Of a stretch of DNA of 64,000 nucleotides, positions 12,001 to 15,000 are shown one piece after another. The first letter of the stretch is position 1. The number at the start of each line of letters is the position of its first letter. The position numbers were made by a program. The stretch comes from Escherichia coli (GTDB taxonomy: Bacteria; Pseudomonadota; Gammaproteobacteria; Enterobacterales; Enterobacteriaceae), in assembly GCF_048403405.1 (NCBI RefSeq), contig NZ_CP183129.1; one strand, 5' to 3'.

Positions 12001-15000
12001 GTCAGTACGTAGTTTGTACCGAATGTTTGCCGATAAAGGTTTGGTAGTCGCGCAATATATTCGTAACCGTCGTCTCGATTTTTGTGCAGATGCGATTCGC
12101 CATGCCGCAGATGATGAAAAACTGGCAGGCATCGGCTTTCATTGGGGATTTTCTGACCAGAGTCATTTTTCAACGGTATTTAAGCAACGCTTTGGGATGA
12201 CGCCAGGCGAGTATCGACGTAAATTCCGCTAACTAATTGGCGTTGTGTGTACTGCAACGCCAATTAGTTAAAACAGATATTTGACTACGCATATTTCAGG
12301 GCGAAAGGCAATTTGACAGGAGCTTTTGAATATTCACCTTGTTTCAGGAAAATAGATCAATCGTTTTCTCCTGTAGCGTTATCCCGATAGTGCGGTTTTG
12401 CTATTAAAATTTTCGCACCCATTTACCGTTTATCCCTTGTACATATTCCCCCGGTTTGGCCCGAGCTACGAGCTTTTGCCCGGCGAGTTTCGCGATATCA
12501 TCTACCGACACATTATTTTGCTTTGCCAGTTGTTGGTAACTCGCTTTACGTTCGGCATTAATGTCGGTTACTAATTTCTCTGTTTCAGCATCCGTTTTCA
12601 GCGCAACCAGATAACCATAAAATGTTTCACCTACCCGCCCCTGAGTTCTGGCTTCATCCAGAGTCAATGCCATTACATTGCTGCTTACCAGCCCAACAAG
12701 AAACGCACAAAGAAGTAATGTTTTCTTCATCATCGCCTCAGAAAAGATCGCTACGAGTCTCAAGCAGCTCTTCGACATCTTTGTCTGCCTTGATGATGAT
12801 CTCATGCTCAATTTTAACGTTCATATTGATAGTGATCGGTTCCTTAGGTGCAGCGACTTCAATGCGAGGCGTACAGCCAACCAGCATAAAAGATGACGTC
12901 AACGCAGCCAGTAAAATTTTCATTGTTTTTCCTCACACTCTTTTCCTTGCGGACAGTCATTTCCCGGCAGACGTGCGTTCTGCTCCAACCATGCCTGGAG
13001 ATTATCGCCAAAGCGTAAACTGCGCCACAGCGTAAAAATATTCTCTTCATGATGGTAATTAAGGTTTACCGTACCGCTTTTACCATCAACGCGACTGGTA
13101 CCTGTAATGTTGGCCTGCATGGTTAATAAACCGAGATTATCTAAATTAATATTTGTCGATGAACGGCTAATTTCCATATAGCGCAACCAGTTAATTGCTG
13201 AACCCGCAGTCATATTGTCTTTCACCACCGCATCTGCGGTGTCTTTATCCAGCCGCAAGGTCATTGGCCCGCTATTTGCCAGCCAGCCATCTTTCACTAT
13301 CCATTTTTCGTTGTTTAGCCATAACGGCAATGCACCACTAAATGCCCCGGACATGGCGAATTGTTTCGGATTGACGGCGCTAACCAGTTCGCTGGATGAG
13401 AGATTATTCAGCCGCAACAGCGCCGGGTCATGTTGCGGCATACGTAATTGTTTCATCACCACGTTACCGCCTAACACATCGACGCTAACATCAGTCAACA
13501 GCAATGGTTCTTCTTCTGTCCACGGATAGCGCCCTTGCAAATCAGCCGTAATATTTTTCGCTGTCACCAGATTAATCACTTCGGCAATTCGCAACGTAAC
13601 GGGGCCGCGAGTCCCCAGATGCCAGGCTCCATCGGCAAAACGGAAAGGCAGGACAAAATCGACACCGTTAACCTGATTATCTGGCATCCAGGCACTACCG
13701 CCTTTCAACACACCGTGCCCTCCCGCGCGGAATCCTTGTTCAGGCGCAGCAGAAAATGCGACCTGAGCATACAGTTCGCCATCGCGTAAGTTCATCTTCC
13801 AGTCGGGTGGCACCAGCGGCTGGAATACGGTCAGTGATTGTTTAGGCCACCAGGCGTTACCGCGCAGACGAATACCGTCCCAGCGACCATTTACCCGAAC
13901 CGGGCCAATCTCACCAGCATGTAAATCGCCTTTAAAGAGGAAATACGTCGGATCGCGTCCATCGACGCTAAATTTTAACGTTGATGGCGGTAACACACTG
14001 CCGCCAGTGAACAGCGTTTGCCCGGCGTCCAGTGACAGCGCGCCGCTAAAGGAGGGATGCTGTACGTCACGTACCCAGACGACGGGCTTATCGAGAATTA
14101 GTCGCGGCTTTTCTACCGTCATCGTACCGTATTGTAACTGGTCGAAACCGGTGGAGAGATCGGTCAGCGTAATCGTGCTGTCATGCCACTCACCCTTTCC
14201 TGCGACATCCCAGGTGGCATTCATCGGTGTAAAACTGCCTTTTCCCCAGTAGCGCCACTGCCAGCGGCCAGCGTCAGGGAGAAAATCATTCGCCAGTCCA
14301 TCCATATGCAGCACGAAATCGCCCAGTTCATTTTCATGCGCCTGCAAAATGGCCTGCAAACGTCCGTCAACACCACGTTGGGTGACTTTTACACCCGCTA
14401 AAGGCCAGCGGATTTCATCGATGTCCAGCGAATCGATGACTCTTCCCTTCGAACGTAATAACGCGCCTGGCTCAAAGGCCAGCGTTGGGTCAGTCAGACT
14501 TCCGCTTAGCTGCGCAGGTAAACGGGCATATAAAATGAGGTCCGCCTGTTTCGCTTCACCGGTCAGCTGCAAAGGCAGCTGGCTGTTATCCATACTTAAT
14601 TTTCCAGGGCCAAAATTAAGCACCGCGTTGCCCTTACCCGCTTGCCCCTGGGTCAGCACACTCAGTCGTCCGCTGACCAGAGCGTTCTCAAGCCCTGCCT
14701 GCCAGTTGTCGACTTTAACACCCAGTCGGCCACTCAAAGGAAAACCTGCATACGGCCAGCTCCAGCGACCATCGCTTACGGTCAATTGTTGGCGAGTAAT
14801 TTGCCACGGCAGATCGAGCAACGGATCGCCGTTATCCCGTGCCACCACAATCAATTGCCCGCTATTTTCCTGCCAGTCTAGCTCGGCATCCACCAGTGAA
14901 GGCTCCTGCGGCAAGTTTAACGTCGCAGTAGCATGACCACTTACAGGAAGTCCATCCGGCACTAGCGGCATAGTAAATTCCCCCACCAGTTTAACCGGCG

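What the first reader, a model, noticed from the sequence alone, without database searches (positions are those of the whole stretch)
12231..12269. Perfect 15-bp inverted repeat beginning inside the feaR stop codon
AACTAATTGGCGTTG-N9-CAACGCCAATTAGTT begins at the last two nt of the feaR TAA and lies between convergent feaR and ydbL. There is no U-run, so it is not a canonical intrinsic terminator. It could be a protein-binding palindrome or an RNA-stability element.
Basis: seen in the sequence. Interest (0 to 1): 0.25.

Follow-up and report, generated by a model that had tools for sequence, protein, structure and literature searches.

The report
U-less RNA hairpin after feaR stop
A real, single-copy, E. 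coli-specific 16-bp perfect palindrome sits on the feaR stop codon between the convergent feaR and ydbL genes; it is most likely an ordinary stable RNA hairpin at a site where the Rho factor, not the hairpin, ends transcription.

Summary
The inverted repeat is real and one base longer than reported. The arms are 12230-12245 and 12255-12270, 16 bp, perfect, with a 9-nt spacer, and the 5' arm holds the whole feaR TAA. Chance does not explain it (0 of 100 simulated windows). It folds at -21 to -28 kcal/mol on either strand, has no U-run on either side, matches no Rfam family and occurs once per genome. About 4195 of 5426 complete E. coli genomes carry it. At least 86% keep a perfect stem, about 10% have one C.C mismatch, and 881 carry a compensated G-C to C-G pair. 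It is absent outside E. coli proper. In Pseudocitrobacter and Pluralibacter the two stop codons abut, and a divergent Escherichia has an unrelated spacer. Published bicyclomycin (Rho-inhibitor) data for K-12 place Rho-dependent termination of ydbL-direction transcripts about 120 nt past the hairpin, with full read-through when Rho is inhibited. So the hairpin does not terminate on its own. [quoted passage not shown] It is young and weakly constrained. No 3' end has been mapped at it. A function-free palindrome kept perfect by template switching is a serious rival. A PaaX-operator reading was tested and rejected. This is a known kind of element of low interest.

The parts
12230..12245 (.). 5' arm of the perfect inverted repeat (TAACTAATTGGCGTTG). 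Its first three bases are the feaR TAA stop codon.
12246..12254 (.). 9-nt spacer or loop (TGTGTACTG here; CATGTACTG in K-12; CATGTACAG in the C..G haplotype). It is the most variable part of the element.
12255..12270 (.). 3' arm (CAACGCCAATTAGTTA). Its TTAG is the insertion point of IS5-family ISKpn26 in two unrelated strains.
12239..12261 (.). The one polymorphic base pair of the stem (hairpin positions 10 and 32). It is G-C in the window and K-12 types, a C.C mismatch in the O104:H4 type, and C-G in the CUVET20 type.
11327..12232 (+). feaR coding sequence (301 aa AraC-type activator). Its stop codon forms the base of the stem.
12271..12403 (.). Remainder of the 171-bp feaR-ydbL spacer. It is the 3' UTR of the ydbH-ynbE-ydbL transcript (- strand) that leads into the hairpin. 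Only the ydbL-proximal ~65 bp (from ~12340) survive in strains that lack feaR.
12404..12730 (-). ydbL coding sequence, convergent with feaR and last gene of ydbH-ynbE-ydbL.
12030..12229 (-). Antisense-feaR stretch downstream of the hairpin in the ydbL direction. The best-scoring position of the published K-12 Rho-termination region (1446501, +) maps to window ~12109. C exceeds G in most of this stretch: the C/G ratio is 1.06-1.44 across its 78-nt windows and peaks at 2.2 just beyond it (+181 to +258 downstream of the hairpin, window ~12049-11972).

Best explanation
The palindrome is transcribed from both sides and folds in either transcript into a very stable, U-less stem-loop of 16-18 bp (-21 to -28 kcal/mol). 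In the feaR mRNA it starts at the stop codon. In the ydbH-ynbE-ydbL transcript it lies 134 nt after the ydbL stop. It does not release RNA polymerase itself. Polymerase runs through it into untranslated antisense RNA, where Rho terminates.

The inferred role is that of the stem-loops found at the 3' ends of Rho-dependent E. coli transcripts. These block PNPase and RNase II, which trim back from the diffuse Rho stop, and so fix and protect the mature 3' end. The hairpin may also pause polymerase. Because the 5' arm contains the stop codon, the feaR-side hairpin can form only after the terminating ribosome has left.

Shown: the structure, the missing U-tract, single copy, population conservation, and Rho dependence in the ydbL direction in K-12. 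Inferred: Rho dependence in the feaR direction, the exonuclease-barrier role, and any fitness benefit. The element is young (E. coli only) and dispensable.
For: The stem is perfect and 16 bp, far beyond chance, and folds strongly on both strands for all four main alleles.

There is no U-run on either side.

Adams et al. 2021 Suppl. file 2 lists a Rho-termination region on the ydbL strand. Its best position is 1446501, 121 nt past the hairpin (K-12 1446340-1446380). Coverage upstream/downstream is 54/14 without bicyclomycin and 87/91 with it; Rho score 4.03, p = 1.3e-5. The hairpin alone therefore stops essentially nothing in that direction.

[quoted passage not shown] C exceeds G downstream of this hairpin on both strands.

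At least 3596 of 4195 E. coli genomes keep a perfect stem. The only arm polymorphism is at paired positions and includes a compensated C-G form in 881 genomes.

A second U-less perfect 16-bp hairpin in the same window, between convergent tpx and tyrR, also has strongly Rho-dependent termination beyond it (293/9 without and 225/132 with bicyclomycin).
Against: No steady-state 3' end has been mapped at the hairpin. The curated Term-seq lists of Adams et al. contain no 3' end for ydbH, ynbE, ydbL, feaR, feaB or tynA, probably because expression is low.

There are no data at all for the feaR direction.

At the analogous tpx-tyrR hairpin, the dominant tpx 3' end maps in the stop codon, 5' of the hairpin rather than 3' of it.

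The element is dispensable. E. coli lacking feaR lack it and have no substitute hairpin within 375 nt of ydbL. It tolerates IS5 insertion and a 15-bp arm deletion. It is missing from all non-E. coli relatives.

Covariation rests on one pair and is not significant formally.
Confidence: 0.5

Rival explanations
1. The palindrome has no selected function. It arose in a young, E. coli-specific spacer, and replication template switching at quasipalindromes keeps it perfect by copying a change in one arm onto the other. Any effect of the RNA hairpin is incidental.
For: The whole 171-bp spacer is lineage-specific. The feaR and ydbL stops abut in Pseudocitrobacter and Pluralibacter, and a divergent Escherichia has an unrelated 73-bp spacer.

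Hundreds of E. coli genomes lack the hairpin, and IS5 insertions and an arm deletion are tolerated.

The C.C mismatch allele is frequent (408 genomes).

The perfect stem persists in 881 genomes of the C..G haplotype, most of which have feaR as a truncated pseudogene.

Template switching that perfects quasipalindromes is established in E. coli (Klaric et al. 2020, PMC7202029). Lavi et al. 2018 (PMC5941160) invoke it to explain the ~150-fold excess and conservation of long perfect inverted repeats in MG1655 non-coding DNA.

Formal covariation is not significant.
Against: A 16-bp perfect palindrome positioned exactly at a stop codon between convergent genes matches the usual location of functional 3' hairpins. 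Once transcribed, a -21 to -28 kcal/mol stem will physically impede 3' exonucleases regardless of its origin. The arms vary less than the loop and the rest of the spacer in the small sample. This rival explains how the palindrome is maintained, not how it arose.
Confidence: 0.3
2. It is a collision-type bidirectional terminator (Ju et al. 2019; Wang et al. 2022). The hairpin pauses converging polymerases from feaR and from ydbL at a fixed point, so that head-on and trailing collisions terminate both transcripts without a U-tract.
For: The class is described as lying between convergent gene pairs, not resembling intrinsic terminators, and requiring an RNA stem-loop to fix the collision point (bioRxiv 10.1101/2022.10.23.513370). 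The palindrome gives the same stem in both transcripts.
Against: That class is described as independent of Rho, whereas ydbL-direction termination here is Rho-dependent with ~100% read-through under bicyclomycin. That measurement was made in LB, where feaR is barely expressed, so collisions would be rare and the test is not decisive. The SEnd-seq tables could not be consulted.
Confidence: 0.1
3. It is a DNA operator for a dimeric protein, for example the phenylacetate repressor PaaX, which would link feaR to the neighbouring paa genes.
For: It is a perfect dyad. In the C-haplotypes the arms read TAATTCGCG...CGCGAATTA, which resembles the published PaaX site TGATTC-N27-GAATCA and the TGATTCGCG of the genuine paaZ-side operator at 4913-4952.
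Against: The window and K-12 allele is TAATTG-N21-CAATTA: four mismatches and a spacing 6 bp too short. Even the best allele (two mismatches) is at chance level, with 50 such sites in the window against 42 +/- 6 expected. The exact motif is absent. The location is at a gene's 3' end. A symmetric change at a contacted base would weaken binding rather than compensate it. No other transcription-factor motif was recognised by eye, and no motif library was available.
Confidence: 0.05
4. It is a weak, non-canonical intrinsic terminator for feaR only.
For: The stem is stable and sits directly after the feaR ORF. A small alternative hairpin (12227-12242) followed by UUGUGUGU is picked up by the consensus scan.
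Against: There is no U-tract after the main stem. The same stem gives no termination in the other direction when Rho is inhibited. The small hairpin is weak, its T-rich tail is specific to the window allele (K-12 has TTGCATGT), and such hits occur at the chance rate (3 found, 2.1 expected). Both hairpins overlap the stop codon, so a terminating ribosome would occlude them.
Confidence: 0.05

Closest known systems
U-less stem-loops at steady-state 3' ends of Rho-dependent E. coli transcripts (Dar & Sorek 2018, NAR, PMC6061677)
   Same: It is an energetically stable hairpin with no U-rich tail and no upstream A-tract. Rho-dependent termination has been demonstrated downstream in the ydbL direction. 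There is mild C-over-G bias downstream.
   Different: No 3' end has been mapped at this hairpin. The stem is longer and more perfect than typical. It is a true palindrome serving two convergent transcripts, and its 5' arm includes a stop codon.
Bidirectional terminators between convergent genes (Ju et al. 2019; Wang et al. 2022 preprint)
   Same: It is a single hairpin-encoding element in a short gap between convergent genes and is unlike an intrinsic terminator.
   Different: That class is reported as Rho-independent, whereas this one is Rho-dependent in the one direction measured. The canonical form with an A-tract, stem and U-tract is present nearby at 9547-9573 (tynA/feaB) and looks quite different.
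REP/BIME extragenic palindromes
   Same: It is an intergenic palindrome in a 3' UTR, of a kind proposed to act as an mRNA stabiliser and partly Rho-dependent attenuator, including between convergent genes (bioRxiv 10.64898/2026.03.23.713779).
   Different: It is single copy per genome and unrelated in sequence to REP. It is not found on plasmids or phages, apart from mislabelled chromosomal records.
Canonical intrinsic (Rho-independent) terminator
   Same: It has a stem-loop immediately after an ORF.
   Different: It has no U-tract on either strand, and read-through is complete when Rho is inhibited.
tpx-tyrR intergenic hairpin in the same window (50908-50942)
   Same: It is a perfect 16-bp inverted repeat without a U-tract, in the gap between convergent genes, with Rho-dependent termination beyond it in K-12.
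   Different: The sequence is unrelated and the loop is 3 nt. The intergenic gap is much tighter (43 bp), and the hairpin lies 3 nt after the tpx stop rather than overlapping it.

Membership tests
Canonical intrinsic terminator | Stable G+C-containing stem-loop in the nascent RNA | tested here: met
   The stem is 16-18 bp and folds at -21 to -28 kcal/mol on both strands.
Canonical intrinsic terminator | U-rich tract (about 5 or more U in 8) immediately 3' of the stem | tested here: not met
   The tails are AAACAGAU (+) and GCGGAAUU (-), and the terminator scan does not call the hairpin.
Canonical intrinsic terminator | Termination persists when Rho is inhibited | tested here: not met
   For the ydbL direction in K-12, coverage with bicyclomycin is 87 upstream and 91 downstream (published data). 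There are no data for the feaR direction.
3'-terminal protective stem-loop of Rho-dependent transcripts (Dar & Sorek 2018) | Stable stem-loop not followed by a U-rich sequence | tested here: met
   class definition
3'-terminal protective stem-loop of Rho-dependent transcripts (Dar & Sorek 2018) | Bicyclomycin-dependent read-through downstream (Rho-dependent termination) | tested here: met
   Rho score 4.03, p = 1.3e-5, best position 121 nt past the hairpin on the ydbL strand. The feaR strand has not been measured.
3'-terminal protective stem-loop of Rho-dependent transcripts (Dar & Sorek 2018) | Precise steady-state RNA 3' end immediately downstream of the stem | tested here: inconclusive
   The curated Term-seq tables of Adams et al. 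list no 3' end for any gene of this locus. The Dar & Sorek tables and other datasets are not held.
3'-terminal protective stem-loop of Rho-dependent transcripts (Dar & Sorek 2018) | Transcript destabilised or trimmed past the stem depending on PNPase and RNase II | not testable with these tools
   This needs half-life or 3'-end measurements in pnp and rnb mutants and in stem mutants.
Collision-type bidirectional terminator (Ju 2019; Wang 2022) | Hairpin-encoding element between convergent genes that does not resemble an intrinsic terminator | tested here: met
Collision-type bidirectional terminator (Ju 2019; Wang 2022) | Termination independent of Rho | tested here: not met
   The ydbL direction is Rho-dependent in LB. 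feaR was probably silent in that condition, so collision could not operate.
REP/BIME | Many dispersed copies per genome sharing the REP consensus | tested here: not met
   The median is one place per genome. The second place seen in some genomes is the palindrome matching its own reverse strand. There is no other copy in the window.
PaaX operator | TGATTC-N27-GAATCA dyad (Kim et al. 2004, as cited in PMC9493321) | tested here: not met
   The hairpin reads TAATTG-N21-CAATTA. The genuine operators are found at 4696-4734 and 4913-4952. Two-mismatch sites occur at the chance rate.
Any curated RNA family (Rfam 15) | Match at or above the family's gathering score | tested here: not met
   There are only sub-threshold eukaryotic miRNA and snoRNA hits, of about 21 bits or less against gathering scores of 38-97 bits.

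The most novel reading that the evidence does not exclude
The E. coli-specific palindrome could be a recently acquired, programmed pause or collision point. It would insulate feaR from read-through of the ydbH-ynbE-ydbL envelope-lipid-transport operon and the reverse, and would become Rho-independent only when feaR is induced. Because outgroups with abutting stop codons exist, it would be a datable example of how a 3'-end element is born between two convergent genes that previously abutted.
Probability: 0.1. Interest if true: 0.35.

Novelty: new member of a known kind. Interest (0 to 1): 0.13.

Why it matters
It matters little beyond annotation. The result adds one un-annotated 3'-UTR hairpin to the E. 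coli map and explains why feaR and ydbL lack a recognisable terminator: in K-12, Rho does that job in the ydbL direction.

There are two modest points of wider use. First, the locus is a clean natural series for testing what a U-less 3' hairpin contributes. The series runs from abutting stops in other genera, to an unrelated spacer, to a perfect hairpin, a mismatch allele, a compensated allele, IS5-disrupted alleles and an arm-deletion allele.

Second, the compensated pair is a reminder that apparent covariation in a DNA palindrome can come from template switching as well as from selection on RNA structure.

Tried and rejected
1. Rfam scan of 11800-12900 at E <= 10 returned only noise.

2. Searching the arm elsewhere in the window with up to 3 mismatches gave chance-level hits only. 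BLAST of the spacer against plasmids and phages returned only mislabelled E. coli chromosomal records. The element is therefore not a repeat family or a mobile-element remnant.

3. The PaaX-operator idea was raised from memory and checked against the literature and the real operators in the window. It was rejected on mismatches, spacing and chance rate.

4. A small alternative terminator-like hairpin at 12227-12242 followed by UUGUGUGU was rejected. It is weak, its tail is allele-specific, it overlaps the stop codon, and such hits occur at the chance rate.

5. Formal covariation counting found one of 16 pairs with a double change, reached by 259 of 500 shuffles, so it is not significant. A hand estimate puts the chance that a second arm substitution hits the partner base with the complementary change at about 1 in 90. 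That argues for a structure-aware process but cannot separate selection from template switching.

6. Cross-species covariation could not be tested. The FeaR-based scan of 100,044 species representatives returned only five loci, and none carries the hairpin.

7. Searches for mapped 3' ends in six further papers failed because no supplementary tables were held or the paper itself was not held. The TRS tables had no E. coli entry at the site.

8. Literature searches for feaR with ydbL, and feaR with terminator, gave nothing on this element.

9. By-eye comparison with the NsrR, TyrR, CRP, FNR and LexA consensus sites recalled from memory showed no convincing match. This is not a formal test.
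Full report
**What is in the sequence.** It is one pair longer than reported. 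TAACTAATTGGCGTTG (12230-12245) and CAACGCCAATTAGTTA (12255-12270) are 100% complementary over 16 bp and are separated by 9 nt. The 5' arm therefore contains the entire feaR stop codon (12230-12232).

feaR is 11327..12232 on the + strand. The convergent ydbL ends at 12404 on the - strand and is preceded by ynbE and ydbH. feaB lies divergently upstream of feaR. RefSeq annotation of strain 1190, which is 100% identical over 321 bp, and of K-12 gives the same gene names.

**Is it chance?** No. In 100 first-order Markov simulations of the 64-kb window, the longest perfect inverted repeat with a 3-20 nt loop averaged 7.8 bp and never exceeded 14 bp. The real window has only two repeats of 16 bp. A 101-nt segment folds with z = -3.8 (+ strand) and -3.4 (- strand) against dinucleotide shuffles. 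The isolated 41-mer folds at -23.4 (+) and -21.3 (-) kcal/mol here, and at about -27 kcal/mol in K-12, whose loop closes two further pairs.

**What it is not.**
- It is not a canonical intrinsic terminator. The 3' tails are AAACAGAUAUUUGAC and GCGGAAUUUACGUCG, and the consensus scan does not call it. The tynA-feaB gap of the same window, by contrast, holds a textbook bidirectional terminator, AAAAAACGGCAC-CTG-GTGCCGTTTTTT (9547-9573).
- It matches no Rfam family.
- It is not a dispersed repeat. There is no other copy in the window and one place per E. coli genome; the second "place" reported for perfect alleles is the palindrome matching its own reverse strand. Plasmid and phage collections return only mislabelled chromosomal records.
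- Nothing is annotated between ydbL and feaR in NC_000913.3.

**Conservation within E. coli.** Of 5426 complete genomes, 4508 match part of the 321-bp region and 4195 contain the hairpin segment. Exact-match counts in a 61-nt frame give four main haplotypes, listed below.

| Haplotype | Paired positions 10:32 | Loop | Genomes |
|---|---|---|---|
| K-12 type | G-C | CATGTACTG | 1398 |
| Window type | G-C | TGTGTACTG | 1317 |
| O104:H4 type | C.C mismatch | CATGTACTG | 408 |
| CUVET20 type | C-G | CATGTACAG | 881 |
| Other | – | – | 191 |

At least 86% of genomes therefore keep a perfect 16-bp stem. The only polymorphic arm positions are the two that pair with each other (window 12239 and 12261), and one haplotype carries the compensated pair. 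All four alleles still fold at -20 kcal/mol or better.

Formally this is one covarying pair out of 16, which is not significant (259 of 500 shuffles). By a simple estimate, the chance that a second arm substitution hits the partner base with the complementary change is about 1 in 90.

Rare alleles show the element is not essential. IS5-family ISKpn26 has inserted at the TTAG of the 3' arm in two unrelated strains, in opposite orientations. One strain has lost 15 bp of the 5' arm.

Most C-G genomes carry a paaY-feaR deletion that leaves only the last 252 nt of feaR, yet the stem is still perfect. Strains lacking feaR altogether lack the hairpin. In those strains homology to the window resumes at about 12340, and no substitute hairpin lies within 375 nt of ydbL.

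**Conservation outside E. coli.** A FeaR-based scan of one genome per species returned five loci. In two Pseudocitrobacter species and a Pluralibacter MAG, feaR and ydbL are also convergent, but their stop codons abut (TGATTA or TGATCA) with no spacer at all. A divergent Escherichia genome labelled E. coli (FeaR 97% identical) has an unrelated 73-bp AT-rich spacer without the hairpin. None of the 5426 E. coli genomes has that spacer. The whole 171-bp spacer, and the palindrome in it, is therefore a recent acquisition of E. coli proper. Cross-species covariation cannot be tested.

**Transcript evidence.** In K-12 coordinates the hairpin is 1446340-1446380, ydbL is 1445880-1446206 (+) and feaR is 1446378-1447283 (-). 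Adams et al. 2021 (PMC7815308, Suppl. file 2) list a Rho-termination region on the + strand, antisense to feaR. Its best position is 1446501, 121 nt beyond the hairpin. [quoted passage not shown] Transcripts coming from ydbL therefore pass the hairpin and are stopped by Rho. With Rho inhibited nothing stops them, so the hairpin has no measurable autonomous terminator activity in that direction.

The curated Term-seq tables of the same paper contain no 3' end for any gene of this locus. This is uninformative given the low coverage. There are no data for the feaR direction. Other 3'-end datasets could not be consulted.

**Best explanation.** Dar & Sorek 2018 (PMC6061677) showed that Rho-dependent E. 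coli transcripts have precise steady-state 3' ends immediately after stable stem-loops. Those stem-loops lack U-rich tails and upstream A-tracts, protect against PNPase and RNase II, and are followed by mild C-over-G enrichment. The feaR-ydbL hairpin has the structure, the missing U-tract, demonstrated Rho dependence on one strand, and C exceeding G downstream on both strands.

I therefore read it as a shared 3'-region stem-loop for two convergent transcription units. It is not a terminator. It is probably an exonuclease barrier and pause site, with Rho ending transcription in the untranslated antisense RNA beyond it. Because the 5' arm includes the stop codon, a ribosome at the feaR stop must leave before the stem can form.

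One caution comes from the same window. The tpx-tyrR gap carries a second U-less perfect 16-bp hairpin (50908-50942). Termination beyond it is strongly Rho-dependent (293/9 without bicyclomycin, 225/132 with it). However, the dominant tpx 3' end maps in the stop codon, 5' of the hairpin. The protective role should therefore not be assumed without mapping.

**Rivals.**
- *No selected function.* Quasipalindrome template switching perfects inverted repeats in E. coli (PMC7202029). It has been proposed to explain the ~150-fold excess and conservation of long perfect repeats in MG1655 non-coding DNA (PMC5941160). It would produce the compensated allele without selection. Youth, dispensability and the frequent mismatch allele fit this reading.
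- *Collision-type bidirectional terminator.* A stem-loop fixes where converging polymerases meet. This is possible, but that class is described as Rho-independent, and the only measurement here shows Rho dependence. That measurement was made with feaR probably silent.
- *Protein operator.* The C-haplotype arms resemble the PaaX site TGATTC-N27-GAATCA. The window allele is TAATTG-N21-CAATTA, sites with two mismatches occur at the chance rate, and the genuine operators are readily found at 4696-4734 and 4913-4952.
- *Weak intrinsic terminator for feaR only.* This is unlikely, for the reasons given under "What it is not".

**Verdict.** The element is an un-annotated member of a known kind, specific to E. 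coli, weakly constrained, and of low general interest.

Noticed in passing
window 50908-50942: There is a second perfect 16-bp inverted repeat (AATATGCCTGATGGTG-TTG-CACCATCAGGCATATT), also without a U-tract, in the 43-bp gap between convergent tpx (50398..50904 +) and tyrR (50948..52516 -). In K-12, termination beyond it on the tpx strand is strongly Rho-dependent (293/9 without bicyclomycin, 225/132 with it). The very abundant dominant tpx 3' end (1388306) falls inside the stop codon, 5' of the hairpin, in an AU-rich stretch that looks like an RNase E site.
   Followed up: partly
window 9547-9573: A textbook bidirectional intrinsic terminator, AAAAAACGGCAC-CTG-GTGCCGTTTTTT, lies between convergent tynA (7224..9533 +) and feaB (9592..11094 -). 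It makes a useful contrast to the U-less feaR hairpin 2.7 kb away.
   Followed up: no
L015 (TUM13770) and L016 (fS54a), at the position of window ~12264-12267: IS5-family ISKpn26 is inserted at the TTAG in the 3' arm of the hairpin in two unrelated strains. The strains have different hairpin haplotypes and the insertions are in opposite orientations, so they are independent hits on the same YTAR target.
   Followed up: partly
L017 (strain 21319), equivalent to window ~12234-12248: A 15-bp deletion removes most of the 5' arm and part of the loop, leaving the 3' arm intact.
   Followed up: no
L002 (CUVET20-PYO1) and about 880 other E. coli genomes; equivalent to window ~11981-12232: A deletion joins a paaY fragment to the last 252 nt of feaR, removing the paa, tynA and feaB genes and most of feaR. 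The perfect hairpin (C-G allele) is retained next to the dead gene.
   Followed up: partly
L008, L009, L010 around 3400-3410: In Pseudocitrobacter faecalis, P. vendiensis and a Pluralibacter MAG, feaR and ydbL are convergent with directly abutting stop codons (TGATTA or TGATCA) and no intergenic DNA and no hairpin. How either transcript ends there is unexplained.
   Followed up: no
window 4696-4734 and 4913-4952: The paaA-paaZ intergenic region carries the two expected PaaX operator dyads: CGATTC-N27-GAATCA and TGATTC-N28-GAAACA.
   Followed up: partly
window 12319-12375: A second, imperfect long-range stem (CAGGAG...CTCCTG) in the feaR-ydbL spacer appears in the predicted folds of both strands. 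Only its ydbL-proximal half is retained in strains lacking feaR.
   Followed up: no
L004 (FDAARGOS_1253) 1-2689: A 7.6-kb gene next to ydbL, equivalent to the BigA/YdbA autotransporter-like gene of other strains, is annotated in RefSeq as an 'EntS/YbdA MFS transporter'. This looks like a naming error caused by ydbA/ybdA confusion.
   Followed up: no
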